This document shows, in pieces, positions 1 to 45,896 of a stretch of DNA of 64,000 nucleotides. The DNA lies in NCBI GenBank assembly GCA_035462175.1, contig DATHUP010000065.1:64771-128770 (forward strand), given 5' to 3'. This stretch comes from Acidimicrobiia bacterium. Its GTDB lineage: Bacteria; Actinomycetota; Acidimicrobiia; Spongiisociales; ZC4RG35. The notes under the pieces are model-generated. The model was given only the letters and a program-made list of their open reading frames with translations, searched no databases and was not told the DNA's origin. A program made the position numbers and the translations under genes. Numbering within the stretch: the stretch's first letter is position 1; the number at the start of each line of letters is the position of its first letter.

Positions 1-1311
1 GTTGGCCACGAAGATGCTGCAGTTCATCGCCCGAGCCATCCGAGTGATGGTCTCGACATTGGTGCTGTGGATCGAGGCGGTATGACGGAAACCGTGCTCG
101 GAGCGCACCGCCAGGTCGATTGCGTCGTCGACGTTGCGCACCCGCACCACAGGCATCACCGGCATCATCTGCTCGGTCCAGACCAGGTTGTGCTCCCGGG
201 GCACCTCGGCGACGAGGAGCCTGGTGTCGGCATTGGCGCTCACCCCGATCTCGGCCAGGATCTTGGCCGCGTCCTGGCCGATCCACCTCGGTTCGATCAT
301 CCCGGGCTTCCCCGGCGGCCCCATCTCCTTGAAGATCACCCGCTCCAGACGCTTCAACTCGTGCTCTTTGAGCCGGTAGGCGCCGGCGCCGACCATTGCC
401 TGCACCAGTCGATCGGCCACGGTGTCGACCACGATCGTCGTCTTCTCGTCGGTGCAGATCACGTTGTTGTCGAACGACGCGCCTTTGACGATGGCTCGGC
501 CCGCGCTGTCGATGTCGGCAGTCTGGTCGACCACGGCAGGCGGGTTGCCCGGCCCGGCGGTGATCGCCTTCTTGCTCGTCTCCAGGGCCTCCTTGACCAC
601 ACCGGGGCCCCCGGTGACGAGGAGGACCCGCACGTCCGGGTGGTTCATCAGCTCCTTGGCCGATTCCAGGGTCGGAGCGGGTATGGCGGTGATCAGGTCG
701 GGCGGCCCACCGGCGCCGACGATGGCCCGGTTGAGGAGCTGGACGTTCTCGACCGAGACCATGCGGGCGCTGGGGTGGACGTTGAATGTGACCGCGTTCC
801 CGGCGGAGACGATGGAGATGGCGTTGTTGATGATGGTCGAAGTGGGGTTTGTGGTCGGCGTGATCGACCCGATGACGCCGTAGGGTGCGTATTCGGTGAC
901 CATCATCCCGGCGTCACCGGTCACCACCTGCGGCTCCAGGTCTTCGGGCCCGGGGGTGCGTGTCGTCACAAGACGGTTCTTGATCGCCTTGTCCTCGCCC
1001 CTGCCCAAACCGGTCTCCTCGGCGGCCATGTAGGCCAGTCGCTCCCCCTCCCGAAGCATGGCGGCGCGCATTGCCTCGACGATGTCCTTCCTGGCCTCGA
1101 GCCCCATCTCCCGGTAGTCGATGAAAGCGGCCTGCGCCGCGGCCACGGCCTGGTCGATGTCGGCGTGGATTCCGTCCCCGAGTTGCGCGTCGGAGAAGGC
1201 GAGCTCGTCCGAGGCGCGCAAAACAGGTGCGGCCCGCTCCGCCATCTCGGCGGTGGCGACCCGGCCCTTGACCCGCTCGATGATGGCCTGGATCTCGGTG
1301 TCGCTCAGCAT
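1..1311 (-). CDS. CoA-acylating aldehyde dehydrogenase (PduP/EutE type), C-terminus cut by window edge
   Basis: Absent from the ORF track because it runs off the window. My minus-strand translation from ATG 1311 gives MLSDTEIQAIIERVKGRVATAEM...GVIGSITPTTNPTSTIINN...VTGGPGVVKEAL...GASFDNNVICTDEK...HGFRHTASIHS, with no stop down to position 1. Catalytic-Cys context NNVIC. The start lies 2 nt after the BMC-P stop. Confidence 0.9.
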   Translation of the reverse strand, partial: MLSDTEIQAIIERVKGRVATAEMAERAAPVLRASDELAFSDAQLGDGIHADIDQAVAAAQAAFIDYREMGLEARKDIVEAMRAAMLREGERLAYMAAEETGLGRGEDKAIKNRLVTTRTPGPEDLEPQVVTGDAGMMVTEYAPYGVIGSITPTTNPTSTIINNAISIVSAGNAVTFNVHPSARMVSVENVQLLNRAIVGAGGPPDLITAIPAPTLESAKELMNHPDVRVLLVTGGPGVVKEALETSKKAITAGPGNPPAVVDQTADIDSAGRAIVKGASFDNNVICTDEKTTIVVDTVADRLVQAMVGAGAYRLKEHELKRLERVIFKEMGPPGKPGMIEPRWIGQDAAKILAEIGVSANADTRLLVAEVPREHNLVWTEQMMPVMPVVRVRNVDDAIDLAVRSEHGFRHTASIHSTNVETITRMARAMNCSIFVAN

Positions 1312-1313
1312 GG

Positions 1314-1625
1314 TTACCCGGTGGGCGCCTCCTCCCGGCCCTTGTGATAGCGCTCCTCACCACTCACGTCCCACGAGTCGACGATGGCCATGATCACCGC
1401 GTCCACCGGGCGGTCGCGGGTCAGCTCGGTCTGACGCGCCGAGCTGCCCGATGCGTAGAGCACCACTTCGCCGACTCCCGCCCCGACCGCGTCGACCGCC
1501 ACGACGTAGCTCCCGGTGTCGGCATTGTCCGCGTCGAGTTGACGGACGACGAGGAATTTCATCCCCTCCATGAGGGGCTCCTTGCGGCTGGCGACGAGAG
1601 TCCCAGCGACCCTGCCTAGATGCAC
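1314..1625 (-). CDS. BMC-P pentameric vertex protein (EutN/CcmL family)
   Basis: 103 aa. [15 protein letters not shown]...FLVVRQLD...[25 protein letters not shown] is the typical EutN/CcmL pattern. It lies inside the BMC operon. Confidence 0.9.
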
Positions 1626-1658
1626 CGTGCCATCTCCTGCCTCGTTGGCTGGTACGGG

Positions 1659-1961
1659 CTAACCGAGGTCTTCCTGCGCCTGATCCTGACGACCGAGCGG
1701 AAGGACCAGGTCGATGTTGACATGAGGCCTGGCGATGACATGAGTGGCGATCACTTCGCCCACCTTCTCAGCGCCGCGCACCCCGGCGTCGACCGCCGCC
1801 TTGACCGCGGCCACGTCGCCGCGGACCACCGCGGTCACGTAACCGCCTCCAGTCTTCTCCATGCTCACCAACTCCACCTTGGCCGCCTTGACCATGGCAT
1901 CGGCCGCCTCCACCATTGCCGGGAAGCTGCGAGCCTCGATCATTCCCAGAGCTTCAGCCAT
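1659..1961 (-). CDS. BMC-H hexameric shell protein (PduA/EutM-like, single BMC domain)
   Basis: 100 aa. [60 protein letters not shown] is a canonical BMC (PF00936-type) domain. Confidence 0.92.
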
Positions 1962-1996
1962 GAAGCTCCTCCTTTCGTTGTGTTCTCTTCACCGAC

Positions 1997-2647
1997 TCAA
2001 CCCGAACCGCCGGCATCCCGACCGGACAGACCCTCCAGCGCCGCTACCGCCGCCTGCCAGCCGACGTCGATGTCCCGCTCCTCTCCGCCCAGGTACACCC
2101 GACCCATCGAGCCGAAGCTGCGCACCTCGAGCACGTTGATCTCGGCCGCCTTCTCCCCCTCGTTGGCAGCAAGAGATGCATAGGCGGCAGGCTCACACTC
2201 GAGCACGTACAGGGTTTGGCCGGGGATGATCATCTGGCCGTGACGGGTCCGGTTGATCAGCTGGGCATGATGATCGTCGAGACGACGGATGATCTGGGAG
2301 GAGAGGATGCGAGGCTTGATCCGGTCGTCCTCGGTGGCCTCGATGGCGTCGAGGATGGCGGCACCGGCGGCCCGGGTCTCGGCCTGGTCAGGCGAGTGAA
2401 CCTCGAGCACCCCGTAGTAGCGCTCGATGATCTGCAGCCCGGGCTTGACCGAGGTCGCCTTCAATGCGACGTCGGAGAGCCGGTTGATCTCGATCCCGGG
2501 GGCGACCTCGACCCAGAGGGAGGCGTCGTTGGCCAGGGGAAGGAAGCCCTGGGCCACCGTCCCGAGGAATGCGGCGTATTGCGGCTGGAGGCTGTCCAGG
2601 AACGCAAACGACCTCAGCTCAATACCTCTCGCCACCTCTACCTCCAT
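1997..2647 (-). CDS. BMC-T tandem-domain shell protein (CcmP/CsoS1D-like)
   Basis: [48 protein letters not shown]...[48 protein letters not shown]. Two roughly 100-aa halves resemble CcmP/CsoS1D as I recall them. Start taken at ATG 2647; GTG 2635 (preceded by GGAGG) is an alternative. The ORF-track start at 2698 is rejected because its N-terminus is R/S/P-rich and overlaps deoC. Confidence 0.85.
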
Positions 2648-3452
2648 CCTTGCCGCCGACGATCTCGATCCCGGCCGAGGCTCCGATTCTGGTCGCACCG
2701 GCGGCGATCATGTCCTCGGCATCGCCGGTGGTGCGCACCCCGCCCGAGGCCTTCACTCCCATCTCCGGGCCGACCGTCTCCCTCATCAGCGCCACGTCGT
2801 ACACCGTGGCCCCCCCGGGACCGAACCCGGTCGAGGTCTTGACGAAGTCCGCCTTGGCCCGCTTGGCCAGGGCCGATGCGATCACCTTCTCCTCGTCGGA
2901 GAGCAGGGCCGTCTCCAGGATCACCTTGCACAGGGCGCCCACCTCGTGGGCGGAGTCGACCACCTTCTCGATGTCCTTGAGCACAAGGTCGTGATCGCCC
3001 GACTTGAGGGCGCCGATGTTCAACACCATGTCGACCTCGCGGGCACCGTCGCGCAACGCACGACGCGCCTCCATCGCCTTCACCTCCGGAGTCGTCGCCC
3101 CCAGGGGGAATCCGATCACACTGCACACCGCCACCGGCGTGCCCCGCAGGTTCTCCGCCGCCCGCTTCACCCAAGTGGGATTGATGCACACCGAGGCGAA
3201 GTGGTACTGCTCCGCCTCACGGCAGAGCCGGTCGATGTCGGAGGCGGTCGCCTCCGGCTTGAGCAGGGTGTGGTCGATGTAGCGGGCCATGTCGAGGGGG
3301 ACCTCCGCCGCCTCGCCGTGGAACGCCACCCGGTCCGCCCCGTTGGCCACCACTTCCCGGACCTTGTCCCCGGTGTCGCAGACGTCATACCGTGCGGAGA
3401 GGGCGGCTAGCACCTCACGGGTGACCATCTCGACTAGGGCATCCCGGTTCAT
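2619..3452 (-). CDS. deoC: deoxyribose-phosphate aldolase (DERA) with an N-terminal extension of about 40 aa
   Basis: [12 protein letters not shown]...[10 protein letters not shown]...[11 protein letters not shown]...[15 protein letters not shown]...[10 protein letters not shown]...FVKTSTGFG match the DeoC family, including the Schiff-base Lys context [11 protein letters not shown] 3452 overlaps the upstream stop as ATGA. Confidence 0.9.
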
Positions 3453-4078
3453 CCTGTTTCCTGTCTCATCCCTGCCGGGGAGTATTGCCGTTCGATGGCA
3501 TCGATCTTGGCAACCCTCCGGGCGTGTCTGTCGCCACCCCATTCCACGGACAGCCACTCCTCGACGATCTGCCAGGCAAGGGCATCGCCGACCAACCCCG
3601 CCCCGAGGGTGAGCACGTTGGCGTGGTTGTGCTCCCGGCTGTTACGGGCCGAGGAGAGGTCGTAGCAGAGGGCCGCCCGCACTCCGGGCACCTTGTTGGC
3701 CACCATCGCCGAGCCGATACCGGCACCGTCGACCACGATCCCGTAGCGACAGGCGCCGGAGGCGACCTCACGAGCGACCGCATGGGCGAAGTCGGGATAG
3801 TCCACCGCATCGTGTGAGTTGGTCCCGCAGTCGAGCACCTCGTAGCCGGCTTCCTTCAGCTTGAAGCCGATCTTCTCCTTGAGGGGATATCCGCCGTGGT
3901 CGGCCCCGATGGCGATCCTGGTCTTTTCGTCTCCTCCGGACGCGGCCGGTTCCCGATGATCGGGATGGCCCTCGGAATCCGCGGGGTGCTCGGAGCCGAC
4001 GACTCCTTCGAGGACACGCTCGACGAGGGAACGGACCTCTTGTTCGGAGGGTGAGCCCGGACCTGCACGGTGTGTCAT
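3449..4078 (-). CDS. RpiB/LacA/LacB-family sugar-phosphate isomerase with a 53-aa N-terminal extension
   Basis: [17 protein letters not shown]...YEVLDCG...VDYPDFA...[28 protein letters not shown]...[14 protein letters not shown] is the RpiB pattern. It is preceded by [53 protein letters not shown]. Confidence 0.85.
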
Positions 4079-6015: not shown

Positions 6016-6924
6016 ATGAATCCGTGGACCCCGCTCGTGGTGGCGACCCTCGGGTGGGGCACGGCAGCCGTGCTCACTCGGGCCCTGCTCAACAGCGGTG
6101 TGTCGACTTTCATCGTCGTCCCGATGCGGTTCGGCATCGCCCTCGCCCTCCTCCTCGTCGTGTCCCGGTTCTGGAAGCGGTTCGACGCGCCCGATCGGCG
6201 ACATTGGAAGCGGGGGTTGATCCTCGGTGGGGTGGCCCTGGCCCTGCCCAACACCTTGTTCACGTTGGGCCTCGAGGATCTCCCGGTGAGCCTGGGCGGG
6301 CTTCTCATCGCACTGATCCCAATCGCGACGGTGGGCGGCGCCCACTTCCTGGTGGAGGGTGAGCGGTTCAACCCGCGGTCGGTCCCCGGGCTGGTGGTGT
6401 CGCTGGTCGGGACCGGGATCCTGGTCGGCGTCGGCGGAGGGGCGCTGGAGGGAGTGGGCAACCTTTGGCGCGGGGTGGGGGTGTCCCTTGTCGCCGTGGT
6501 CCTGGCCGGCGCCGGCGGCGCCTTGACCCGTCGTTTCGCGCTCGAAGTCGGTGGCGACGGCCTCGTCATCCCCCAGTTCGCCATTGCCACCGCGATCAGC
6601 CTGGCCGCGGTGCCCTTTCTCAACACCACCCCCGTGTCGACCATCGAGCCCTCGGAGTGGGCGCTGCTCATCGCGCTCGGGGCAATCGCCACGGCGGTGC
6701 CGTTCAGCGCCTTCCTGGTCGCGGCCCAGATCAACCTGGCGTCCCGTCTCGCTGTGGTCGGATACGTGGTGCCGGTGATCGCCGTGGCCCTGGCCGTGGT
6801 CTTCCTCGGCGAGACGCTGACCGTTCCCATCGTCGTGGGTGCGATCCTGATCCTCGCCGGCGTGATGCTCACCGAGCGTTCCACCCGTCACGTTCCCGTC
6901 CCCGGGGTCAACATCGCGAGGTGA
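6016..6924 (+). CDS. EamA/DMT-family transporter
   Basis: Polytopic hydrophobic pattern with two EamA-like halves (LGWGTAAVLTRALL..., ...LGAIATAVPFSAFLVAAQ). ATG 6016 chosen (MNPWTPLVV); the ORF opens at TTG 5998. Confidence 0.8.
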   Translation: MNPWTPLVVATLGWGTAAVLTRALLNSGVSTFIVVPMRFGIALALLLVVSRFWKRFDAPDRRHWKRGLILGGVALALPNTLFTLGLEDLPVSLGGLLIALIPIATVGGAHFLVEGERFNPRSVPGLVVSLVGTGILVGVGGGALEGVGNLWRGVGVSLVAVVLAGAGGALTRRFALEVGGDGLVIPQFAIATAISLAAVPFLNTTPVSTIEPSEWALLIALGAIATAVPFSAFLVAAQINLASRLAVVGYVVPVIAVALAVVFLGETLTVPIVVGAILILAGVMLTERSTRHVPVPGVNIAR

Positions 6925-6940
6925 CGGGACCGCCGTCCGC

Positions 6941-7058
6941 AACCTGAGGTTCCACGTAACGCATATGCAACGAACTCTCTCCGGTTCACCTGGGCGCGTC
7001 AGGCAGTTCGGAAACTCGAGAGCGTTTGTAACGGATATGAAACGCAGAACCTCAGGTT
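6941..7058. repeat. 118-bp TIR-flanked intergenic repeat, copy 1
   Basis: The ends AACCTGAGGTTC (6941) and GAACCTCAGGTT (7058) are perfect 12-bp inverted repeats. Imperfect arm pairing extends to about 41 bp. Internal direct 17-mers are GTAACGCATATGCAACG (6956-6972) and GTAACGGATATGAAACG (7028-7044). A second copy lies in inverse orientation at 43658-43808. Confidence 0.7.
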
Positions 7059-7083
7059 CGAAGTGGCGTTTACCCTCCGGGGG

Positions 7084-8721
7084 ATGAGTCGTCGGATACT
7101 GGTTGCGGTCGGCTGGCCCTATGCGTCGGGATCGCTCCATCTCGGGCACCTGGGCGGGGCTTATCTGCCCGCGGACATCTTCGCCCGATACCACCGGATC
7201 GCCGGCAACGACGTGCTGATGGTGTCGGGGTCCGACGCCCACGGGACGCCGATCACGGTCAAGGCCGACGAGGAGGGGATCAGCCCTCGCCAGGTGGTCG
7301 AGCGGTACCACCCCGAGATCGTGGGTTATTGGGACTCGCTGGGAATCTCGTTCGACCTGTTCACCACCACGATGACCGAGAACCACGCCGCGGTGACACA
7401 GGACGTGTTTCTCCGTCTGCTGGAGAAGGGATACTTGGTCAAGAGAACGACCACCCAGTATTACGACCCGGAGGCCGAGCGGTTTCTCCCGGACCGCTAC
7501 GTCGAAGGGACCTGCCCCCACTGTGGCTACACGCAGGCCCGGGGAGACCAGTGTGAGAATTGTGGGCGCACCCTCGACGCCATCGACCTGATCGACCCCC
7601 GTTCCCGTCTGACCGGGTCGACGCCAGTGCTCAAGGAGACCGAGCACTTCTTCTTCAAACTGCCCGAGTTCGCCGAGCCGTTGCGGGAGTGGCTGGAGTC
7701 GAAGTCCAACTGGCGCCGGCATGTGAGGAACTGGGCGCTGGCGATGATCGCAGAAGGCATGCCCGAGCGCGCCATCACCCGGGACATCGAATGGGGCGTG
7801 GAGGTGCCGGTCGACGATCTCGGGCAGGGCAAGCGGATCTACGTCTGGTTCGACGCCGTCATCGGCTATCTGAGCGCAGCCAAGGAGTGGGCCGCCACGT
7901 CGGGGGAACCCGACGCGTGGAAGCGATGGTGGGAGGATCCCGAGGCCGAGTCGTATTATTTCGTCGGCAAGGACAACATCCCCTTCCACGCCGTCATGTG
8001 GCCGGCGATGCTCATGGGATACGGTGGGCTCAACCTGCCAACCGACGTGCCTGCCAACCAATTCATCACGTTCAAGGGGATGAAGGCGTCGAGATCCCAG
8101 GGTGTTGGATTGCCCATCAGTTGGTATGCCGAGCGACTCGAGCCCGATGCCATCCGCTATGCGATAGCCACCGTGCTCCCAGAGCAGAACGACACGGACA
8201 TCAGCGACGACGACATCATCCGACGGGTCAACGAGGAGCTGGTTTCAACCTGGGGCAACCTGGTCAATCGCGTCCTCTCGATGAGCGAGCGGAACTTCGA
8301 TGGCCAGGTACCACCCAGAGGATCGCTCACGGCCATCGACGAGGCGCTGCTTTCCTCGGTGGACAAGACGTTGCAGACGACGGCCGGCCACATCGAGGCC
8401 GTGGAGCTGAGGGCCGGCTTGCGCACCGCCATGGACTCGGCAGCGGACGTCAATGCCTATCTGAACTCCGAGGAGCCCTGGCACGCGATCAAAGAGGATC
8501 GGGACCGTGCCGGCACCATCCTCTGGACCGCGATCCAGGCCATCTCGGGGATCAGGGTGGCCCTGGCCCCCTACTTGCCGTGGAGCACTTCCCGGCTCGG
8601 CGAGATGCTCGGCATCGGCGCCGTGACCGGTTGGGAGCGGCCCGACATTCCGGGAGAGGCACGGCTGGGCCGGGTCACGACCCTGTTCGACAAGCTGGAG
8701 CCCGACGCCCTCGACGACTGA
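7084..8721 (+). CDS. metG: methionine--tRNA ligase
   Basis: WPYASGSLHLGHL (HIGH motif), Zn knuckles CPHCGY...CENCG, and the KMSKS-like GMKASRSQG. ATG 7084 preferred over GTG 7063. Confidence 0.93.
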   Translation: MSRRILVAVGWPYASGSLHLGHLGGAYLPADIFARYHRIAGNDVLMVSGSDAHGTPITVKADEEGISPRQVVERYHPEIVGYWDSLGISFDLFTTTMTENHAAVTQDVFLRLLEKGYLVKRTTTQYYDPEAERFLPDRYVEGTCPHCGYTQARGDQCENCGRTLDAIDLIDPRSRLTGSTPVLKETEHFFFKLPEFAEPLREWLESKSNWRRHVRNWALAMIAEGMPERAITRDIEWGVEVPVDDLGQGKRIYVWFDAVIGYLSAAKEWAATSGEPDAWKRWWEDPEAESYYFVGKDNIPFHAVMWPAMLMGYGGLNLPTDVPANQFITFKGMKASRSQGVGLPISWYAERLEPDAIRYAIATVLPEQNDTDISDDDIIRRVNEELVSTWGNLVNRVLSMSERNFDGQVPPRGSLTAIDEALLSSVDKTLQTTAGHIEAVELRAGLRTAMDSAADVNAYLNSEEPWHAIKEDRDRAGTILWTAIQAISGIRVALAPYLPWSTSRLGEMLGIGAVTGWERPDIPGEARLGRVTTLFDKLEPDALDD

Positions 8722-8965: not shown

Positions 8966-9373
8966 CTAGTTGGGCGGGTAGACCCCGGCGTCCTTGGCCT
9001 TGTCCGTCTGCCAGAAGATGTCTGCGATCTCGTCGATCAGCTCCACCAGCTTCCGCCCGTCCTCAGGGTCGACCGACTTCTTGGCGTTCCCCGCCTGGAG
9101 GATCGCCCGCCAGAACAGGTCGTCGAGGTTGGAGAACTCCTTGCGATGATCGGCGGTGAAGAAGTCGACCCAGAGCACCATCAGATGGTGTTTGACCAAC
9201 TCGGCCCGCTCCTCCTTGATCATGATCGCCCGATCGCGAAACACCTCGTCATCCGAGGCCTGGTACTTCTCGGCCGACTTGAGGACCGACATGGCCTCGA
9301 TCTTGGCCTGAGCCGGGTCGTACACCCCGCAGAAGAGATCGCAGTGGGCGTGGGCAACCGTTATCTGCCGCAT
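8966..9373 (-). CDS. sodN: nickel superoxide dismutase precursor
   Basis: MRQITVAHA|HCDLFCGVYDPAQAKIEA. This is the Ni-hook HCxx(P)CGxY directly after a short leader ending in Ala. ATG 9373 chosen; the longer ORF-track N-terminus is rejected. Confidence 0.9.
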   Translation of the reverse strand: MRQITVAHAHCDLFCGVYDPAQAKIEAMSVLKSAEKYQASDDEVFRDRAIMIKEERAELVKHHLMVLWVDFFTADHRKEFSNLDDLFWRAILQAGNAKKSVDPEDGRKLVELIDEIADIFWQTDKAKDAGVYPPN

Positions 9374-9417
9374 GGCACTCCTTCGTTGTCGACGTGGACC
9401 TTCGACCATACCCTGCA

Positions 9418-10389
9418 ATGACGATTCCCATGCAGCGGTTCCGTGTCTCCGAGGACTCGATGCGGCCAACTCTCGTTCCCGGCGACGAGTTCGTCGTCAC
9501 CGGGTCCCGGACGCCGGTGGTCGGCGACATCGTGACTCTGCCTCACCCGGATCGGCCCGACTTCTGGCTGGTCAAGCGGCTCAAGGCCGGCCCCGGAAAC
9601 CGGGTCGACGGGCGGGCGCTGGGGGCGGGTGAGGCCTGGGTGACGTCGGACAATCCGAGGGTCGAGACAGCCGACTCGAACCGGTTCGGCGTGGTGCCGA
9701 TGGCGTCTCTCAAAACCATGGTGACCCGATTCGACGAGACCACATTCCTCGAGGCAGTCGCCCTGCTCAGCAACGAGGAGCCGCCCTTCGCCAGGGTCGT
9801 CGAGGTGCTCGGCCCGCCGCCTTTCTGGCAGCGACCCGCCGGTTTTCCCACCCTGGTCTGGCTGATCATGGAGCAGCAGGTCTCCCTCGAGTCCGGAGCG
9901 GCGATGTACCGGAGACTCCATGGCCTGCTCGGGACTATCACCCCTGAAGCCGTGGCCGGGTCGTCGGACGCCGACCTCCGCGCCATCGGCGTGACCAGGC
10001 AGAAGACGGCTTATCTGCTCGAGTTGGCCAGTTCGATCGTCACCGGCGAGCTCGACCTCGCCGCCCTGGGGGAGGAGACCGTGGTAGATGCGAGACGGAC
10101 ATTGCTCTCGATCAAGGGGATCGGCCCCTGGACCGCCGACGCCTACCTGCTCTCGGCCCTACGCTTCCCCGACGTCTTCCCGGTCGGCGATCGCGCCCTC
10201 CAGGTGGGGACGGCGGAAGTCCTCGATCTCGCCTCGGCCCCGCCCCCCGACGATCTGGACATGCTCTCCTCCCCGTGGCGGCCGGTCCGGGCCGCGGCGG
10301 CCCGCATCATCTGGCACGCCTACCTGAAAACGAGGGGTCGAGTGGAGCCCTCCGACCCGACGGCGGACTCGGGGCACACACCGCTCTGA
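9418..10389 (+). CDS. fusion of a SodX-type S26 peptidase (Ni-SOD maturation protease) with an HhH-GPD DNA glycosylase (AlkA/Mag-like)
   Basis: The N-terminal part, RVSEDSMRPTLVPGDEFVV...GDIVTLPHP...FWLVKRL...WVTSDNP...DSNRFGVVP, carries the S26 Ser/Lys motifs and resembles SodX. The C-terminal part, FPTLVWLIMEQQVSLESGAAMYRRL...GVTRQKTAYLLELA...IKGIGPWTADAYLLSALRFPDVFPVGD, is an HhH-GPD domain. It is one open frame with no internal stop. The start is uncertain (GTG 9394, ATG 9418 or ATG 9430). Confidence 0.75.
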   Translation: MTIPMQRFRVSEDSMRPTLVPGDEFVVTGSRTPVVGDIVTLPHPDRPDFWLVKRLKAGPGNRVDGRALGAGEAWVTSDNPRVETADSNRFGVVPMASLKTMVTRFDETTFLEAVALLSNEEPPFARVVEVLGPPPFWQRPAGFPTLVWLIMEQQVSLESGAAMYRRLHGLLGTITPEAVAGSSDADLRAIGVTRQKTAYLLELASSIVTGELDLAALGEETVVDARRTLLSIKGIGPWTADAYLLSALRFPDVFPVGDRALQVGTAEVLDLASAPPPDDLDMLSSPWRPVRAAAARIIWHAYLKTRGRVEPSDPTADSGHTPL

Positions 10390-39245: not shown

Positions 39246-39806
39246 CTAGACCCGGACCGGCCCCTGACGCAGGACGACTATTTCGCTCCCGGTGACGTCG
39301 ACCACGGTCGAGGACTGGCCCCCCGTCGACCGGCCCTCGACGTACACCGACACCCGGTCTCCGAAGAGAGCCCTCGCCTCATCGTGGCTCAACGACTCCT
39401 CACCGCCGCTCACGTTGGCCGAAGTCACGGCCAGGGGCCCCACCGCGGCCAGGAGCTCCAGGGTCACGGGGTGATCGGGCACGCGCAGCCCCACGGTTTG
39501 TCGTTGCGCGTCGCCAACCCAGTCGGCGAGTACCACCGTCGGGGTCACCACGAGGGTGAGGGCGCCCGGCCAGTGCGCGGCAGCGAGGTCGGCGGCGACA
39601 CCGCGGATGTCGCCGATGACCTCGGCCTGCTCGGAGGAGGCGACCAGCAGGCCGACCGGTCTGTGCTCAGGCCGGCCCTTGAGCTCGAACAACTGAGCCA
39701 CCGCCTGCTCGCTCATCGGATCGGCGCCGATCCCGTAGACGGTGTCGGTGGGGAGACCGATCACCTCGCCACGTCGTACGGCCGCCACGGCATCCTCGAT
39801 GGTCAC
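39246..39806 (-). CDS. tsaC: L-threonylcarbamoyladenylate synthase (TsaC/YwlC, Sua5 domain)
   Basis: [18 protein letters not shown]...[17 protein letters not shown]...LAVTSAN. Confidence 0.85.
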
Positions 39807-40528
39807 GGTTTGACCGCGACGATGTAGCGATCGCGGCCGCCGAGGTCCTGGCGGACGATGGCGGGCAGGTCGACGAACGAGCTGGTCGCGGAGACACCCT
39901 GCCTCTCCCCGATCTCGCAGATGACGACGCCCCCGGGTCGAAGCCAGGACGCCGCCGACGCGCCGATCCGCTGGATCACCTCGAGACCGGTGGGCCCGGC
40001 TACCAGGGCCACCTTCGGCTCCCTCTGCACGTCGGCGGGCAGCCGGTCGAAATCGACTTCCGCCACATAAGGGGGATTCGCCACGATGAGGTCGACCGAT
40101 CCGAGTATCGCGGTGGGGAGAGGGTCGAAGAGGTCGCCCTCTGCCAGATAGACCTGCAGCCCTGTCCGATACCGGTTGTCGGCGGCGACGTCGATCGCAT
40201 CCGCCGAGATGTCGGTGGCGAAAACGGCGGCCGAGGGGAACCGGCTCTTCAGGGCGAGCGCCAGGGCGCCCGACCCGGTGCAGAGGTCGATGATGATCTC
40301 CGGCTTGCGCACCATGCGGGTCGCCAGCTCGAACAAGCCTTCGGTCTCCGGTCTCGGGATCAGCACCCGTTCGTCGACGGCGATGTCGAGGGGGCCGAAA
40401 GCAGCCGTGCCCTCGATGTACTGCAATGGCTCGCCCCCGAGACGGCGGGCGATCAGATCATCGAGAGATGCGTCGGGACCGGCGGCAGCCTCCAGCCTGA
40501 CTCTCTCGTGTTCGGGAATCGTGGCCAT
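39803..40528 (-). CDS. prmC: release-factor glutamine N5-methyltransferase
   Basis: PLQYIEGTAAFGPL...LIPRPETE...DLCTGSGALALAL...IVANPPYV. ATG 40528 chosen; TTG 40561 is an alternative. Confidence 0.85.
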   Translation of the reverse strand: MATIPEHERVRLEAAAGPDASLDDLIARRLGGEPLQYIEGTAAFGPLDIAVDERVLIPRPETEGLFELATRMVRKPEIIIDLCTGSGALALALKSRFPSAAVFATDISADAIDVAADNRYRTGLQVYLAEGDLFDPLPTAILGSVDLIVANPPYVAEVDFDRLPADVQREPKVALVAGPTGLEVIQRIGASAASWLRPGGVVICEIGERQGVSATSSFVDLPAIVRQDLGGRDRYIVAVKP

Positions 40529-40671
40529 GGGCACGTCCAACTCTCTGATGCAAACCCCCAACCGTCAGAAGATACTTCACTTTTGCCGGCCCAACCGGGA
40601 ACAAAACACCGGCGAGCCCGAGGTCTGCCATCATCGGCCTGGCATGGATGTTCCAGGATGCAAGGACTTCG

Positions 40672-41040
40672 ATGAGTGAGGCCAAGCGAGTTCTTGTCGC
40701 CGACGACTCGGAAACGGTCACGACGGTGCTGGTCACCGCATTGGAGTTGGAGGGCTACCAGGTAGAAACCGCCCGCAACGGTGTCGAAGCGTACGAAATG
40801 GGCGTATCCGGGCGATACGACCTGGTGATCCTCGACCAGTTGATGCCGGGAATGCTCGGGCTGGAGATAATCGACCGTTGGCAACAGGAAGGGCACGAGA
40901 TCCAGACCATCATGCTCTCGGGGGTCGACGACGAGCGCACCGTGGTCGACAGCTTCGAGTCGGGCGCCTTGGACTTCATCAGAAAGCCTTTTCGGCTCCC
41001 CGAATTGCTGGCCCGAGTCCGCCAGCGCCTGCCCGACTGA
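40672..41040 (+). CDS. stand-alone response-regulator receiver domain (CheY-like)
   Basis: RVLVADDSE...YDLVILDQLMPGMLG...IMLSGV...ALDFIRKPF carries the DD, D and K signature and has no output domain. ATG 40672 has AAGGA 5 nt upstream. Confidence 0.85.
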   Translation: MSEAKRVLVADDSETVTTVLVTALELEGYQVETARNGVEAYEMGVSGRYDLVILDQLMPGMLGLEIIDRWQQEGHEIQTIMLSGVDDERTVVDSFESGALDFIRKPFRLPELLARVRQRLPD

Positions 41041-41095
41041 GCACCGGTTTCCTCAATCCGACCTTCGCATCGACCGATGAGAACTGATAGATCTC

Positions 41096-42241
41096 ATGAA
41101 CGCAACCACGATCGGGCTCTTGGCGGTCGGGATCGTCTTCGTCGTCGACATCATCCTGCTGCTGGGGCTGGTGACACTGAAGGCATTCCATCGCAGGCGC
41201 ACCGAGCGCCACGAGCTGCGCCGCGCCGCCTATGTGGCCACCTTGAGCCGTCACCTGGCCTCACAGGGGTCCACCGACCGGATCGGGGCCGAAGCCGCCG
41301 ACGACGACGCATTCATCGACGCGGTCATAGACCTGCGCAATGTCGTGTCCGGCGCGGACACAGAGACCCTCACCGGGCTCGTCGACGGCTTGGGGGTGGC
41401 GCAGAGACAGGTTGCCAAGCTTCGCAGTGGCTTCCCGCTGGGAAGACGGCTTCGGGCGGCGGTATCGCTGGCCGAGATTGGTGACGAGTCGACTGCGCCT
41501 GTCCTCATCGAACATCTCTCCGATCGCGAGCCCGAGATCAGGATCCAATGCGCCCGAGGTCTGGGCCGAATGCGGAACACGGCGTCCATCGACGCCATCC
41601 TGGAGAGGCTGGGCATCGAGAATCCGTGGGTGCGGGTGCGCTTCGCCGACACTCTCATCGGGTTCGGAGCCACGGCGACCTGGCCTCTGACCGCCTACAT
41701 ACGGGTCAATCTCGGCCACGACGAGAACCGCGGGGTGATCGAGGCCATCCGGGTCCTGGGAACCATCGGCGATCGCGAGGTCGGGCCCACCCTGGCCGGT
41801 GTCCTCCGTGTCGCCGCGGATCCTGAAGTCCAGCTGGCCGCAATCGAGGCATTGGGGTTCGTCGGCGGGCCCATGGCCATCCCACCTCTCGACTACGCCC
41901 TGCGCTCATCCGATTGGAGGCTCAGGGCGAAGGCGGCCACCGCACTGGGGAACATCGGCGATCCCACGGTCAACCTCGCGCTGGCCCGGGGGCTGGAGGA
42001 CGAGAACTGGTGGGTGAGACGCAACTCGGCTGCCGCCCTGGGATCTTTGCCGGGCGGCGACCGACTGCTGCTGAATGCGATGAGGTCTGCCGACCCCTTC
42101 GCCCGGGATGCAGCCGCCGAGGCTCTCGCCGACATCGGCGCTCTCACCACTGCCCGAGAGCGAGACGAAACCGGACAGGCCACCGAGGAAGACCTCCTGC
42201 TCCTCGAGCATGTCACCGCCGGGAAACGGGTGCTGGTGTGA
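41096..42241 (+). CDS. membrane-anchored HEAT-repeat (PBS-lyase-type) protein
   Basis: N-terminal TM helix LLAVGIVFVVDIILLLGLV, followed by at least six repeats of the D..vR..Aa.aLG.igd pattern (for example EPEIRIQCARGLGRM, DWRLRAKAATALGNIGD, NWWVRRNSAAALGSL). Confidence 0.8.
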   Translation: MNATTIGLLAVGIVFVVDIILLLGLVTLKAFHRRRTERHELRRAAYVATLSRHLASQGSTDRIGAEAADDDAFIDAVIDLRNVVSGADTETLTGLVDGLGVAQRQVAKLRSGFPLGRRLRAAVSLAEIGDESTAPVLIEHLSDREPEIRIQCARGLGRMRNTASIDAILERLGIENPWVRVRFADTLIGFGATATWPLTAYIRVNLGHDENRGVIEAIRVLGTIGDREVGPTLAGVLRVAADPEVQLAAIEALGFVGGPMAIPPLDYALRSSDWRLRAKAATALGNIGDPTVNLALARGLEDENWWVRRNSAAALGSLPGGDRLLLNAMRSADPFARDAAAEALADIGALTTARERDETGQATEEDLLLLEHVTAGKRVLV

Positions 42242-43647
42242 TCAACGACCTCCTCGCCTGGGCGGGCTACGCCACGCTGATCTACTTCATCGTCATGCAG
42301 GCGTACATGATCGGTCTCGGGCTGCGCTCGGGGGCGGTCATGCGACGCACCCATCACCTCAACCGGTTCGGACGGGTCTCCGAGATGCTCTCCAGCTACA
42401 CCTCGCCCCCCGTCTCCATCGTGATCCCTGCCTACAACGAGGCAGCGGGGATCGTCGCCTCGGTCCGCTCTATGTCGATCGTCGGCTACCCGCGCTTCGA
42501 GATCATCGTCACCAACGACGGATCCAGCGACGAGACCCTGAAAGAGCTTGTGGAGGCGTTCAACCTGGAGCAGGTCCGGGTCCCCTATCGCGCCGACATC
42601 CCTACCGCACCGCTGCGAGGTATCTACCGGGGACGGGGGACGGTGGACATAACCGTGATCGACAAGGAGAACGGGGGGCGGGCCGACGCCCTCAACGCCG
42701 GGATCAACGCGGCGCGCTATCCCTACGCCCTCTGCACCGACGCCGACGTCATCCTCGACGCCAATTGCCTGGTAGGTGCCATGCGCCGGGTGGTCGAGGA
42801 CCGGGAGAGGACCGTCGCCGTCGGTGGCAACATCCGGCCCCTCAACGGGAGCCGGGTCCAACTCGGCCATCTGATCAGGGCCGAAGTGCCCAAGAGGCTG
42901 GTCCCACGGATGCAGGTGCTGGAATACCTGCGCACCTTCCTCGCCAGCCGGCCCGCCTGGTCGCAGATGGAGGCGCTGCCACTGATCTCAGGAGCCTTCG
43001 GGGTCTGGAAGCGGTCGGCCGTCGTGGCCGTCGGCGGCTTCACCATCGGGCACATGGGAGAGGACATGGACCTGACCATGCGCATGCATCGATATCACAT
43101 CGACAACCAGATCCCCTATCGGATCGTCTACGAGCCGTCGGCGGTGATCTGGACCGAGGTCCCGGAAACCCTGCGGGTGCTGAGACGACAGCGGATCAGA
43201 TGGCACCGCGGGCTGATGACGTCGGTGAAGGACTTCCTCCCCATGACCTTCAACCCGAAGTACGGGAAGCTGGGGATGATCACCTGGGCCGCCATGTTCC
43301 TCTTCGAGTTCCTGGCGCCGCTCATCGAGGTGGTGGGGTGGATCACGATCCCGACCGCGCTCCTCCTCGGAGCGCTGAACACGACCACTCTCTTCGTCCT
43401 CCTCGCCCTCGCCTTCGGCATCGGGCTGCTCAACTCGTTGGTCGCCCTCCTTCTCGACGAGTCCTACGGCTACTTCAACTCCAGGACCGACACCGCCCGA
43501 CTCATCGTGATGGCCCTCATCGAGAACTTCGGCATGCGCCAGCTCACGGTTGCCTGGCGGATCCGCGCCTTCATCGGCGGCAAGGGCACCCGCGCCTGGG
43601 GCAACATGGAGCGAAGGGGCGTGGCGAACCTCGGCATCGAGGGGTGA
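42238..43647 (+). CDS. processive family-2 glycosyltransferase (PgaC/IcaA/NodC/cellulose-synthase-like polysaccharide synthase)
   Basis: VSIVIPAYNE, TNDGSSDET, CTDADVIL, GEDMDLT and RRQRIRWHRG (Q/RxxRW), with N- and C-terminal TM helices. GTG 42238 overlaps the HEAT gene stop as GTGA. Confidence 0.88.
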   Translation: MINDLLAWAGYATLIYFIVMQAYMIGLGLRSGAVMRRTHHLNRFGRVSEMLSSYTSPPVSIVIPAYNEAAGIVASVRSMSIVGYPRFEIIVTNDGSSDETLKELVEAFNLEQVRVPYRADIPTAPLRGIYRGRGTVDITVIDKENGGRADALNAGINAARYPYALCTDADVILDANCLVGAMRRVVEDRERTVAVGGNIRPLNGSRVQLGHLIRAEVPKRLVPRMQVLEYLRTFLASRPAWSQMEALPLISGAFGVWKRSAVVAVGGFTIGHMGEDMDLTMRMHRYHIDNQIPYRIVYEPSAVIWTEVPETLRVLRRQRIRWHRGLMTSVKDFLPMTFNPKYGKLGMITWAAMFLFEFLAPLIEVVGWITIPTALLLGALNTTTLFVLLALAFGIGLLNSLVALLLDESYGYFNSRTDTARLIVMALIENFGMRQLTVAWRIRAFIGGKGTRAWGNMERRGVANLGIEG

Positions 43648-43657
43648 AGCCGCACCG

Positions 43658-43808
43658 AACCTGAGGTTCTGCGTTGCATATACGTTACGAACTCTCTCGA
43701 GTTCGAGCGACGCGGTCGGGGACGCGGGGGTCGCCGGGATCCAGGTCGAGGGCGGACCGGTGAACTCGAGGCGGTTTGTGGCAAATGCGTTACGTGGAAC
43801 CTCAGGTT
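43658..43808. repeat. 151-bp TIR-flanked intergenic repeat, copy 2 (inverse orientation relative to copy 1)
   Basis: AACCTGAGGTTCTGCGTTGCATATACGTTACGAACTCTCTCGAG...CTCGAGGCGGTTTGTGGCAAATGCGTTACGTGGAACCTCAGGTT. The terminal roughly 45 bp at each end match the reverse complement of 6941-7058. The central core differs and is longer. Confidence 0.7.
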
Positions 43809-43824
43809 TCGGGTCTCCACCCGC

Positions 43825-44880
43825 TCACCCGCCGTCGGCGAGACGGGTGGCCTGTTCGTCGGTGGTGAGGGCGGTGACGAACTCGTCGAGGTCGCCGTCG
43901 AGGACTTGATCCAGTCGTCTCAGAGTGAGCCCGATCCGATGATCGGTCACGCGGTTCTCCTTGAAGTTGTAGGTGCGGATCTTCTCCGAGCGCTGGCCGG
44001 ACCCGACCTGGGAGCGCCGAGCACCGGCCACCTCGGATTGACGCCGCTCCAGCTCACGCTGGTAGAGACGGGCGCGAAGGATGCGCATGGCCTTCTCCTT
44101 GTTCTGGAGCTGGCTCTTCTCGTCCTGACAGGTGACCACCGTCCCGGTGGGGAGATGGGTGAGCCGGACGGCGGAGTCGGTGGTGTTGACCGACTGGCCG
44201 CCGGGGCCGGTGGAGCGATACACGTCGATCTTGACCTCGGCGGGGTCGATCTCGACCTCCACCTCCTCGGCTTCGGGGAGGACGGCCACCGTGGCGGTCG
44301 AGGTGTGGACCCGGCCCTGGGACTCGGTCTTGGGGACCCGCTGCACCCGATGGACCCCGGCCTCATACTTCATCCTCGAATAGGCCCCTTTTCCTTTCAA
44401 CGCCACAGTCACCTTGTCGTAGCCACCCGCCTCGGAGGGTGAGCTGTCCATCGGCTCGATCTTGAACCCGTGGCGTTCGGCATAGTGCTCGTACATGCGG
44501 AGCAGGTCGCCCGCCCAGATCGCGGCCTCGTCCCCGCCTGCCGCGGACCGGATCTCGACGATCACGTCCTTCTCGTCGGTCGGGTCGGCAGGAACCAGGG
44601 CCGAGGTCACACGACTCTCGAGTTGCTCGATCTCCGCCGCCAACTCACTGGCGAGAGCAGCCATGTCAGGGTCGTCCATCGCCCGAGCCTCGTCGAAGTC
44701 CGTTTGCGCCTGCCGGAGACGCCGGATGTCGGCCACCACGTCACGCAGATCGGAGTGACGTTTGCCCAACTCGGCGAGAAGGGACGAGTCTGCCAGGGTC
44801 TCAGGATCTCCCAGCGCCGTCTCTGTTTCCTCGAACACGGCTTCGATCTCGGCGAGCCTCGCCGCCAGGGACTCCTCCAT
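43825..44880 (-). CDS. prfA: peptide chain release factor 1
   Basis: [16 protein letters not shown] (PxT region), [18 protein letters not shown] (GGQ), [14 protein letters not shown] 44880 chosen. Confidence 0.95.
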
Positions 44881-45896
44881 CAGCCCTCCTCGTGGGGGGA
44901 GGTGATGCCGAAGACGACACGGCGCACCTCCAGGGCAGACTCGGGCACGCCGCCGCGCCCGATCACGTCGTCCACCATCTCGTCGTCCAAGGCGACCACC
45001 AGACTCGAGATGGCCACCTCGATCTGGGTCTCGTCGGGCACCCTGGTGGTGAGCTTCTGCAGCCAGACACCCGGAGCGGCCAGGGCACGGGCGAGAAGCC
45101 CCGACCTCCGCGTCCCCGACCAACGCAACAACTCGTAGGCGAAGCCGGCGACGACCGGGATGCCCAGGAGACGGGAGGTGACCAGGAACGCCCATCCGGG
45201 CCGGCCGAAGAAGGTGAAGAGGATGATCGAGCCCAGCACGACGATCAACAGGAAGCTGGTCCCGCACCGGGGATGCTCGGGCGGATAGCGACGCACCGAT
45301 TGGATGCTGAGGGGCTCCCCCGCCTCGTAGGCATGGATGGACATGTGCTCGGCGCCGTGATACTCGAACACCCGCCCGATCTCAGCGGAGCGGCCGATCA
45401 CCCAGATGTACCCGACGAACAGGAAGAGACGGGTGACCCCTTCGATCACGTTGAACACGATCCCGGACTCGCCCGACACCGCCCCGGCGGCCAGGGCGGG
45501 AAGGAGGATGAAGATCCCGGCGAAGAGCACGAAGGCCAGGGTCATGGTCCAACCGATCTGGGCCCGGGTCAGCGGCTCCTCTTCCTCACCGGCCGCCTTC
45601 TCCGCAGACCAGGAGAGGGCGCGGAAGCCGAGGCTCAGCGACTCCCAGAGCACGACGATGCCCCGGACGAGGGGGATTCGAGCAGCCCGATTCCTCTCGG
45701 CGAGACGACCGAGGACGTCGCGACGGGCGACGATGGTCTGATCCGGCTGTCGCACCGCCACCGACCAGGCGCCAGGGGCGCGCATCATCACACCCTCGAT
45801 CACTGCCTGACCCCCGACCGTCTTGGCCGGGTCGATCGAACCGCTCAGCCGCGGCGCGGCCGACTCACTCTGCGTCAGCGGCTTCCGCCTCCGCAC
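44880..45896 (-). CDS. DUF1385-family membrane protein
   Basis: [13 protein letters not shown]...[13 protein letters not shown]...[12 protein letters not shown] is typical of DUF1385. The start is approximate: GTG 45896 overlaps the rpmE 3' end and later near-cognate starts are possible. Confidence 0.72.

What the first reader, a model, noticed from the sequence alone, without database searches (positions are those of the whole stretch)
40562..43824. Opposite-strand receiver / HEAT-repeat / processive GT2 synthase cassette splitting the conserved prfA-prmC pair
The minus-strand block rho-rpmE-DUF1385-prfA ... prmC-tsaC-glyA-atp follows the widely conserved order, in which prfA and prmC are normally adjacent and co-transcribed. 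Here 3.3 kb on the plus strand intervene. They encode a stand-alone CheY-like receiver, a membrane-anchored HEAT/PBS-lyase-repeat protein, and a PgaC/IcaA/cellulose-synthase-like GT2 with DxD, GED and RRQRIRW motifs and flanking TM helices. The HEAT and GT2 genes are translationally coupled through a GTGA overlap. The cassette's right border is the TIR repeat at 43658-43808. No histidine kinase, deacetylase, export or PilZ component is present, so this is not a recognisable pga/ica/bcs/pel-type system. A phosphorylation-controlled, HEAT-scaffolded exopolysaccharide synthase would be a new arrangement as far as I know.
Basis: partly seen in the sequence, partly recalled or inferred. Interest (0 to 1): 0.6.

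Follow-up and report, generated by a model that had tools for sequence, protein, structure and literature searches.

The report
Receiver–HEAT–synthase polysaccharide operon beside prfA
Three genes sitting between two translation-termination genes of an uncultured Acidimicrobiia bacterium encode a membrane sugar-polymer synthase, its membrane-anchored HEAT-repeat partner and a phosphorylation-sensing switch. The same unit occurs across many bacterial phyla and some archaea, and I found no description of it in the literature.

Summary
Window 40648-43647 (+) encodes a 130-aa stand-alone receiver, a 381-aa single-TM HEAT/PBS protein and a 469-aa GT2 with DxD, GED and QRIRW motifs. The HEAT and GT2 genes share a GTGA overlap, and the trio lies between prmC and prfA.

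The reading as an acquired, TIR-bordered cassette is not supported.
- The trio sits at this site in 13 of 15 same-genus genomes examined and in five other genera of the family.
- The two empty-site genomes nest inside trio-bearing ones, so they lost it.
- The inverted repeat is one copy of a dispersed REP-like element (64 matches in the genome).

- HEAT-linked GT2s form one clade, distinct from E. coli PgaC (27% identity).
- 60 of its 63 members have a HEAT gene directly upstream or fused.
- Diderm members add a YaiO-type outer-membrane barrel.
- 31 of 53 loci have a protein ending in a receiver domain upstream.
- The AlphaFold model of the GT2 matches processive hyaluronan, cellulose and chitin synthases.

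I found no described counterpart. This scan has flagged the same module before in other genomes. Verdict: new variant of synthase-dependent polysaccharide systems; product and regulatory mechanism are inferred.

The parts
39803..40561 (-). prmC (HemK-type release-factor methyltransferase), left flank. The true start is probably the ATG at 40528.
   Evidence: Pfam MTS and PrmC_N. tblastn alignments in relatives begin at residue 7-12 of the TTG-started ORF.
40562..40647 (+). Intergenic region between the divergent prmC and REC genes. The part up to about 40580 is the conserved prmC leader, also present at empty sites. Sequence specific to the cassette begins at about 40581.
   Evidence: Comparison of filled and empty sites. 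No sigma-70 consensus was found.
40648..41040 (+). Stand-alone receiver (REC only, 130 aa; an alternative start is M9 at 40672). It carries D19/D20, phospho-acceptor D63, S91 and K113.
   Evidence: Pfam Response_reg 2.7e-26 covering the whole domain. In 32 REC domains that lie next to HEAT genes: Asp 29 and Glu 3 at the acceptor position, S/T in 32 of 32, Lys in 31 of 32.
41096..42241 (+). Membrane-anchored HEAT/PBS-repeat protein (381 aa). It has one N-terminal TM (residues 8-26), a basic juxtamembrane stretch and a HEAT solenoid inferred to be cytoplasmic. Proposed role: co-subunit of the synthase.
   Evidence: HEAT_2 8e-36 and HEAT_PBS 3e-17. Hydropathy. Family alignment. A HEAT gene lies upstream of, or is fused to, the GT2 in 60 of 63 clade members.
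42238..43647 (+). Processive membrane GT2 polysaccharide synthase (469 aa). The start overlaps the HEAT stop (GTGA).
   Evidence: Pfam and NCBIfam. 27% identity to E. coli PgaC, E 6e-26. AlphaFold2 pLDDT 89.5, pTM 0.90. Top Foldseek hits are hyaluronan, cellulose and chitin synthases.
43658..43808 (.). Copy of a dispersed REP/MITE-like inverted-repeat element with AACCTSAGGTT termini, in the gap between the convergent GT2 and prfA genes. It is not part of the module. It may act as a hairpin terminator or insulator.
   Evidence: 64 BLAST matches in the own genome. Absent from this gap in G001, G009, G024 and G008; present in G018 and G023. RNA fold -87.6 kcal/mol, z = -3.7.
43825..44925 (-). 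prfA (release factor 1), right flank, convergent with the GT2.
   Evidence: Pfam PCRF 1.8e-65 and RF-1 3.5e-43.

Best explanation
The three genes form one operon for a regulated, synthase-dependent polysaccharide.

The GT2 is a membrane-embedded processive synthase. It polymerises a nucleotide sugar on the cytoplasmic face and threads the chain through its own transmembrane channel. The most likely product is a GlcNAc-containing beta-linked polymer, possibly with another sugar.

The HEAT protein is its obligatory partner. Its single N-terminal helix would pack against the synthase's membrane bundle, and its HEAT solenoid would lie in the cytoplasm against the catalytic domain. This is the role PgaD or IcaD play for PgaC or IcaA, and the PilZ domain plays for BcsA.

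The stand-alone receiver has no DNA-binding output. When phosphorylated by a kinase or phosphorelay encoded elsewhere, it would bind the HEAT solenoid or the synthase and switch polymerisation on or off after translation.

Shown: the domain content, the motifs, the processive-synthase fold, the strict HEAT-GT2 linkage and fusions, the conserved phospho-acceptor residues, and the age of the locus.

Inferred: the physical REC-HEAT-GT2 contacts, the direction of regulation, the sugar, and that the polymer is extracellular.

The unit is an old resident of the prmC|prfA gap in this family, not a recent insertion.
For: (1) The GT2 is of the processive kind.
- DxD, GED and QRxRW are invariant across phyla.
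- The best curated family is PgaC_IcaA.
- Identity to E. coli PgaC is 27% over 369 aa, E 6e-26. BcsA gives 6e-5 and NfrB 0.002.
- The confident AlphaFold2 model (pLDDT 89.5, pTM 0.90) best matches hyaluronan synthases (TM 0.60-0.69), then BcsA and chitin synthases.

(2) HEAT is an obligatory partner.
- In a tree of 91 GT2s, the HEAT-linked ones form one clade of 63 (support 0.94). It is separate from PgaC and from HEAT-less relatives.
- 60 of the 63 have a HEAT gene directly upstream on the same strand or fused. Two of the three exceptions sit at contig starts.
- Natural TM-HEAT-TM-TM-GT2 fusions occur in Sphaerochaeta and in Firmicutes/Mollicutes, in at least 41 protein clusters. The extra TM keeps the HEAT domain cytoplasmic.
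- The fusion folds as one compact object (pLDDT 87.5, pTM 0.86 for 950 aa).

(3) Regulation by phosphorylation.
- A protein ending in a REC domain lies upstream in 31 of 53 loci.
- That protein ranges from REC alone to REC-REC, Hpt-REC-REC and Hpt-GGDEF-REC.
- Phospho-acceptor chemistry is conserved.
- Mesorhizobium has a histidine kinase, two response regulators and an Hpt protein in the cluster.

(4) Export logic. Diderm members add a YaiO-family (TPR plus) outer-membrane barrel gene. The Acidimicrobiia loci have only the trio, flanked by unrelated genes.

(5) Selection. Across the genus the GT2 is 82-91% identical, like prfA and glyA.

(6) Hints about the sugar. In a haloarchaeal cluster, glmS and a sugar-phosphate nucleotidyltransferase follow the GT2. 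In Legionella, a nucleotide-sugar dehydrogenase and epimerases flank it.
Against: - No experiment exists for any member that I could find. The product, the REC-HEAT contact and the sign of regulation are all inferred.
- 22 of 53 loci, mainly gut Firmicutes, lack an upstream REC, so the receiver is an accessory input and not a core part.
- The cassette has no kinase. The one Hpt-bearing kinase in this genome (a CheA-like hybrid) occurs equally in trio-less relatives, so it gives no pairing signal.
- The structure tool returns no coordinates or PAE, so the HEAT-GT2 interface could not be inspected.
- No promoter or terminator consensus was found.
- Neighbouring sugar genes differ between lineages, so the product may not be the same everywhere.
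Confidence: 0.6

Rival explanations
1. HEAT-GT2 is the functional synthase pair. The receiver is only loosely associated. It could be a phosphate sink, or a switch for another process that is co-transcribed, and it does not gate the synthase directly.
For: REC is missing upstream in 22 of 53 loci with enough sequence to judge, including a whole gut-Firmicutes subclade. HEAT and GT2 overlap, whereas REC is separated from HEAT by 55 nt here. No tool result shows a REC-HEAT contact.
Against: Where REC is present, it is always the last domain before the HEAT gene, whatever else the protein carries. The trio moves as one unit between unrelated contexts in Acidimicrobiia. A REC-only protein has no other obvious local target.
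Confidence: 0.17
2. The GT2 does not make a secreted exopolysaccharide. It makes a cell-envelope-bound glycan or short oligosaccharide, for example a wall-associated polymer, a NodC-like chitooligosaccharide or a membrane glycolipid.
For: Weak hits to NodC and the chitin-synthase Pfam family. Some clusters carry an LTA-synthase-family gene. Nothing in the window shows where the product ends up.
Against: C-terminal TM bundle and full-length structural matches to channel-forming synthases. Diderm relatives carry an outer-membrane barrel gene in the cluster, which points to export across the envelope.
Confidence: 0.15
3. The cassette is a recently acquired mobile island. It inserted between prfA and prmC and is bounded on the right by a terminal inverted repeat.
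For: prfA and prmC are adjacent in the outgroup and in two same-genus genomes. An IR abuts the GT2 stop. GC is slightly lower over REC (0.59-0.63).
Against: The trio is at this site in 13 of 15 genus genomes examined and in genera g16, g18, g26, g28 and g29 of the family, down to 56% GT2 identity. The empty-site genomes are nested in the flank-gene tree, which means loss. The IR has 64 matches genome-wide and is absent from this gap in the closest relatives. There is no integrase, no transposase and no target-site duplication.
Confidence: 0.03

Closest known systems
PgaCD (E. coli) and IcaAD (staphylococci) poly-beta-1,6-GlcNAc synthases
   Same: A GT2 of similar size with TM helices at both ends and D, DxD, xED and QRxRW motifs. 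PgaC_IcaA is the best curated family hit, with 27% identity to PgaC. Both need a small-gene membrane partner encoded next to the synthase, and PgaCD is controlled after translation.
   Different: The score is far below the equivalog cut-off (136.6 against 422.3 bits). The GT2 lies in a separate clade from PgaC. The partner is a 381-aa single-TM HEAT solenoid, not a 2-TM PgaD or IcaD. The regulatory input is a phospho-receiver rather than c-di-GMP. There is no PgaB/IcaB deacetylase. The product is unknown.
Class I hyaluronan synthases (Chlorella virus HAS, Xenopus HAS1)
   Same: Closest solved folds to the AlphaFold2 model (TM 0.60-0.69, Foldseek E about 1e-14). They are compact GT2s of about 500 aa that both polymerise and translocate.
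   Different: Only 14-17% identity. HAS works alone, without a partner or a receiver. There is no evidence here for an alternating GlcA/GlcNAc product.
BcsA-BcsB cellulose synthase with its PilZ domain
   Same: Processive GT2 with a channel. The catalytic site is gated by a cytoplasmic regulatory module. Diderms add a TPR/beta-barrel outer-membrane porin.
   Different: No PilZ and no BcsB. 25% identity over only 129 aa. The regulatory module is a separate HEAT protein plus a receiver.
NfrB-NfrA-YbcH (E. coli), a c-di-GMP-activated GT2 with an outer-membrane exporter
   Same: A minimal synthase-dependent layout: an inner-membrane GT2 and an outer-membrane protein, with a signalling input acting on the synthase (annotation).
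   Different: Hardly any sequence similarity (E 0.002). NfrB carries its own c-di-GMP-binding C-terminal domain. It has no HEAT partner.
Wsp- or Dif-type phosphorelays that control exopolysaccharide output
   Same: Phosphotransfer to a receiver domain controls polysaccharide production.
   Different: As I recall, those act through a GGDEF output or other downstream routes, not through a REC-only protein next to a HEAT-partnered synthase. I did not check this against papers. No link to this genome's CheA-like kinase could be shown.

Membership tests
Processive (channel-forming) GT2 polysaccharide synthases | D, DxD, (T/G)ED and Q(R/Q)xRW motifs in a GT-A domain, flanked by TM helices | tested here: met
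   D94, D168-A-D170, G274-E-D276 and Q318-R-I-R-W322 are invariant in 36 cross-phylum sequences. N- and C-terminal helices appear in the model.
Processive (channel-forming) GT2 polysaccharide synthases | Fold matches solved synthase-translocases over the full length | tested here: met
   Foldseek against PDB: CvHAS and XlHAS1 at TM 0.60-0.69, then BcsA and chitin synthases.
PgaCD / IcaAD PNAG synthase | Reaches the curated equivalog score (NCBIfam TIGR03937) | tested here: not met
   136.6 bits against a cut-off of 422.3. Separate clade from E. coli PgaC.
PgaCD / IcaAD PNAG synthase | Small 2-TM PgaD/IcaD partner and a CE4 deacetylase (PgaB/IcaB) in the operon | tested here: not met
   The cassette holds only REC, HEAT and GT2. 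The partner is a 1-TM HEAT protein.
PgaCD / IcaAD PNAG synthase | The product is poly-beta-1,6-GlcNAc | not testable with these tools
   There is only indirect context: glmS and a nucleotidyltransferase next to a haloarchaeal homologue.
BcsA cellulose synthase | C-terminal PilZ domain and a BcsB partner | tested here: not met
   No PilZ in Pfam. No BcsB-like ORF. 25% identity over 129 aa.
Non-processive GT2 (DPM synthase / GtrB type) | A GT-A domain without QxxRW and without a translocation channel | tested here: not met
   QRIRW and a C-terminal TM bundle are present. GtrB (5ekp) matches only residues 51-110 by sequence and is not among the top 50 fold hits.
Two-component receiver domain | Acidic pair, phospho-acceptor Asp, Thr/Ser and Lys | tested here: met
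   D19/D20, D63, S91 and K113 here. They are conserved in the 32 HEAT-adjacent REC domains.
Two-component receiver domain | Cognate histidine kinase encoded next to it | tested here: not met
   No HK in the cassette or its flanks. Kinases and Hpt are present in the clusters of other phyla.
Synthase-dependent secretion systems (pga, bcs, alg, pel logic) | Inner-membrane synthase plus accessory subunit, with a TPR/beta-barrel outer-membrane porin in diderms | tested here: met
   YaiO-family barrel genes lie in the clusters of Mesorhizobium, Emticicia, Legionella and several MAGs. None was detected in the Acidimicrobiia loci, where the genes flanking the trio are unrelated housekeeping genes.
Mobile genomic island | Matching terminal repeats or a target-site duplication, a recombinase, and a patchy, recent distribution | tested here: not met
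   The IR is a dispersed REP-like element found on one side only. No recombinase. The site is occupied across the family.

The most novel reading that the evidence does not exclude
HEAT-partnered GT2 synthases are a separate, ancient class of synthase-dependent polysaccharide machines. They are found in more than ten bacterial phyla and in haloarchaea. In them, a membrane-anchored HEAT solenoid takes the place of PgaD, IcaD or PilZ. A phosphorylated receiver domain docks on the solenoid and gates the synthase directly. This would be a phosphorylation-based counterpart of c-di-GMP control, acting after translation, and it would make a polymer not yet identified.
Probability: 0.35. Interest if true: 0.78.

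Novelty: new variant of a known kind. Interest (0 to 1): 0.62.

Why it matters
Synthase-dependent exopolysaccharide systems are usually described as four types: cellulose, PNAG, alginate and Pel. All four are gated by c-di-GMP (this is my own background knowledge, not checked here).

This module would add a widespread synthase family with a different accessory subunit, a HEAT solenoid, and a different input, phosphotransfer. It occurs in soil, marine and gut bacteria and in archaea, and includes cultured strains that could be studied. Examples are Mesorhizobium ciceri WSM1271, Patulibacter americanus, Sporosarcina luteola and Stutzerimonas kunmingensis.

Identifying the polymer and the gating mechanism would fill a gap in biofilm and capsule biology. 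It would also give function to thousands of genes now annotated only as "glycosyltransferase family 2" and "HEAT repeat domain-containing protein".

For this window specifically, the work shows that the broken prfA-prmC pair is an old family trait and not a recent event.

Tried and rejected
- A mixed alignment of fusion, HEAT and GT2 rows (A3) put the HEAT proteins onto the GT2 half. I dropped it and used an alignment of fusions only (A4).
- phmmer against PDB sequences matched only the N-terminal GT-A segment. I used the fold search instead.
- A phylogenetic profile of this genome's only Hpt kinase, a CheA-like Hpt-HATPase-CheW-REC hybrid, was uninformative. It is present in 38 of 41 relatives, including trio-less ones.
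- The promoter and terminator consensus scan found nothing.
- My crude GC3-based gene calling of relatives' loci was unreliable. I replaced it with six-frame ORFs plus jackhmmer.
- A jackhmmer search with the full YaiO protein also pulled in TPR proteins. For that reason I trust mainly the barrel-only query and PGAP's annotations.
- Five literature searches and two papers read gave no description of a HEAT-partnered GT2 synthase. The Romboutsia RiGT2 synthase (PMC10374906) is a PilZ-bearing, BcsA-like enzyme and not this family.
- The apparent GT2 pseudogene in G015 was dismissed as assembly error, because rho and the DUF1385 gene are also split in that genome.


Full report
WHAT IS THERE

The window is contig C65:64771-128770 of a 3.3-Mb, 95%-complete MAG. 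Its closest database proteins are labelled Acidimicrobiia.

Between prmC (39803-40561, minus strand; the true start is probably 40528) and prfA (43825-about 44925, minus strand) lie three plus-strand genes:
- a receiver at 40648-41040;
- a HEAT-repeat protein at 41096-42241;
- a GT2 at 42238-43647, whose GTG start overlaps the HEAT TGA stop.

Pfam confirms Response_reg (2.7e-26), HEAT_2 and HEAT_PBS (8e-36, 3e-17) and the GT2 families Glyco_tranf_2_3 and Glyco_trans_2_3. The best curated NCBIfam model for the GT2 is PgaC_IcaA, but at 136.6 bits against a cut-off of 422.3.

IS IT AN INSERTION?

Twelve same-genus genomes fetched with wide flanks all carry REC-HEAT-GT2 between prmC and prfA, in the same orientation. 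Identities are GT2 82-91%, HEAT 61-84% and REC 68-90%, against 78-88% for prfA. A thirteenth, G015, does too. Its split GT2 goes with split rho and DUF1385 genes, so I read it as assembly error.

Two genus members, G020 and G005, have prfA and prmC 89 nt apart and no homologue of the GT2 anywhere in the genome. In a tree built from six flanking genes, these two form a clade nested well inside trio-bearing genomes (support 0.99-1.0). They therefore lost the trio.

Other genera of the same family (g16, g18, g26, g28, g29) have the same prmC|trio|prfA order, even where the GT2 is only 56-58% identical. In other families of the order, prfA and prmC are adjacent and the trio sits elsewhere. There it lies among unrelated housekeeping genes: MurJ, Maf, Dus, polyprenyl synthase and a sigma factor.

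Across the class, 62 of 301 genomes have an orthologue at E <= 1e-80. In the window's own family the figure is 32 of 38. The arrangement is old and is maintained by selection. It is not a recent acquisition.

THE "TIR"

The inverted repeat at 43658-43808 is real and folds into a long hairpin (-87.6 kcal/mol, z = -3.7). However, its roughly 50-nt arms match 64 places in this genome, including window 6940-7059.

In the closest relatives the GT2-prfA gap is only about 10 nt and has no repeat. Some others carry their own copies. It is a REP/MITE-like intergenic element that landed between two convergent genes, and it is not a cassette border. There is no recombinase and no target-site duplication.

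THE MODULE IS WIDESPREAD

A scan of one genome per species returned 80 loci. I searched six-frame ORFs of these loci with jackhmmer.

Every full-length GT2 relative at 33% identity or more, wherever upstream sequence was available, has a HEAT gene directly upstream on the same strand. The only exception is one Nitrospira locus. The taxa include Gemmatimonadota, Myxococcota, Acidobacteriota, Verrucomicrobiota, Balneolaceae, Nitrospira, Caulobacteraceae, Stutzerimonas kunmingensis, Bacillus caseinilyticus, Sporosarcina luteola, Clostridium caldaquaticum, many gut Clostridia, Patulibacter americanus, a Corynebacterium MAG and Salinarchaeum.

In a 91-sequence tree these GT2s form one clade of 63 (support 0.94). 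The clade is separate from E. coli PgaC and from a HEAT-less clade that includes Streptomyces sequences. 60 of the 63 have HEAT adjacent or fused.

In Sphaerochaeta and several Firmicutes/Mollicutes the two proteins are fused into a chain of about 950 aa, with the order TM-HEAT-TM-TM-GT2. The extra TM is what is needed to keep both the HEAT solenoid and the GT domain on the cytoplasmic side. At least 41 protein clusters of such fusions exist. One of them folds with pLDDT 87.5 and pTM 0.86 over 950 residues, which argues for a defined HEAT-GT2 assembly rather than two tethered domains. I could not inspect the interface.

Annotated plasmid records call the pair only "HEAT repeat domain-containing protein" and "glycosyltransferase (family 2 protein)", so no curated family covers it.

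REGULATION

A protein ending in a receiver domain lies upstream in 31 of 53 loci that have enough sequence to judge. It may be REC alone (Acidimicrobiia, Balneolaceae, haloarchaea), REC-REC, Hpt-REC-REC or Hpt-GGDEF-REC. In each multidomain protein I scanned, the best REC match is the last domain before the HEAT gene.

Across 32 such domains, the phospho-acceptor position is Asp in 29 and Glu in 3. The Thr/Ser position is kept in 32 of 32 and the Lys in 31 of 32. The window's receiver has all of them: D19/D20, D63, S91 and K113.

Mesorhizobium ciceri pMESCI01 has a kinase, two response regulators and an Hpt protein around the pair. The receiver here has no output domain, so control of the synthase at the protein level is the simplest reading. 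That step is inferred.

EXPORT AND PRODUCT

Diderm members add a YaiO-family outer-membrane barrel gene, often with TPRs. This is seen in Mesorhizobium, Emticicia, Legionella adelaidensis and several MAGs. It is the layout of synthase-dependent secretion systems. The Acidimicrobiia loci have only the trio.

The GT2 model (pLDDT 89.5, pTM 0.90) best matches hyaluronan synthases, followed by BcsA and chitin synthases. By sequence it is closest to PgaC (27% identity, E 6e-26) and far from BcsA and NfrB. It does not group with dolichol-phosphate-type transferases.

Context hints about the sugar are few and differ between lineages. A haloarchaeon has glmS and a sugar-phosphate nucleotidyltransferase downstream of the GT2. 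Legionella has a nucleotide-sugar dehydrogenase and epimerases. A GlcNAc-containing polymer is my best guess, held with low confidence.

COMPARISON AND NOVELTY

The system works like PgaCD or IcaAD: a GT2 with an adjacent membrane partner and control after translation. It fails their membership tests on score, clade, type of partner and deacetylase. It lacks the PilZ and BcsB of cellulose synthases.

Five full-text searches found no description of a HEAT-partnered GT2 synthase.

Earlier notes of this scan describe the same module in other genomes and reached similar conclusions. I treated them as leads only. The points they share with this report were re-derived here independently: the HEAT linkage, the fusions, the outer-membrane barrel in diderms, the archaeal members and the closeness to PgaC.

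New for this window are the family-level age of the prmC|prfA site, the secondary loss in two genomes, the identification of the IR as a dispersed repeat, and the conservation of receiver residues.

VERDICT

The "new arrangement" reading is supported, and the "acquired, TIR-bordered cassette" reading is rejected. This is a new variant of synthase-dependent polysaccharide systems. Its product and gating mechanism are still to be shown by experiment.

Noticed in passing
window 6940-7059 and 43658-43808; 64 matches in G000 (e.g. C45:85223-85367, C74:1094-1252, C50:102270-102388): A dispersed family of about 50-nt units with near-palindromic AACCTSAGGTT termini. The units usually come in inverted pairs around a variable GC-rich core and lie in intergenic gaps. 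It looks like a REP/MITE-type element. Related genomes carry their own copies in the same GT2|prfA gap.
   Followed up: partly
G000:C49:125773-127803 (L143:6774-8807) and the next gene, L143:8865-9773: This is the only Hpt-containing protein in the genome. It is a CheA-like hybrid (Hpt-HATPase_c-CheW-REC) followed by a soluble HisKA-HATPase kinase, lying between guaA and a UvrD/PcrA helicase gene. Pfam scans of the six neighbouring ORFs showed no MCP, CheB or CheR. It is conserved in 38 of 41 relatives. It is a possible phosphodonor for orphan receivers, but no link to the trio could be shown.
   Followed up: partly
L133 (Mesorhizobium ciceri pMESCI01) 9159-9884: A plasmid-borne HemK/PrmC-family methyltransferase paralogue lies just downstream of the HK-RR-RR-YaiO-HEAT-GT2-Hpt cluster. 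This echoes the prmC adjacency in the window. It may be coincidence.
   Followed up: no
window 39803-40561 and 43825-45267: The longest ORFs overstate both flanking genes. prmC homology starts at the ATG at 40528, not the TTG at 40561. The 480-aa prfA ORF has about 115 extra N-terminal residues that overlap the DUF1385 gene; the real start is near 44925.
   Followed up: partly
L050 (G005:C7) and L052 (G015:C4): Several housekeeping genes appear split by frameshifts in these low-contig-count assemblies: rho, thrC and prfA in G005, and rho, DUF1385 and the GT2 in G015. This is probably sequencing error and not pseudogenisation.
   Followed up: no
L146 (G280:C15) 478-3484 and 6032-7431: In one genus of the family, about 3 kb lies between REC and HEAT and about 1.4 kb between the GT2 and prfA. 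The module has gained extra genes there. I did not examine them.
   Followed up: no
L039, L040 (G028:C91, G039:C28); L154, L155 (G070:C5, G081:C29): Some Acidimicrobiia genomes carry a second, divergent REC-HEAT-GT2 copy at another locus (GT2 41% identical in G028 and G039, 67-68% in G070 and G081). In G028 the receiver of the second copy has an N-terminal extension of about 150 aa.
   Followed up: partly
L140 (Bacteroides finegoldii plasmid 4) 1-2210 and 4710-7362: A HEAT-GT2 pair lies about 2.5 kb from a chondroitinase-family polysaccharide lyase gene and is followed by DUF4838 and DUF1573 genes. This may hint at a glycosaminoglycan-like product in that lineage.
   Followed up: no
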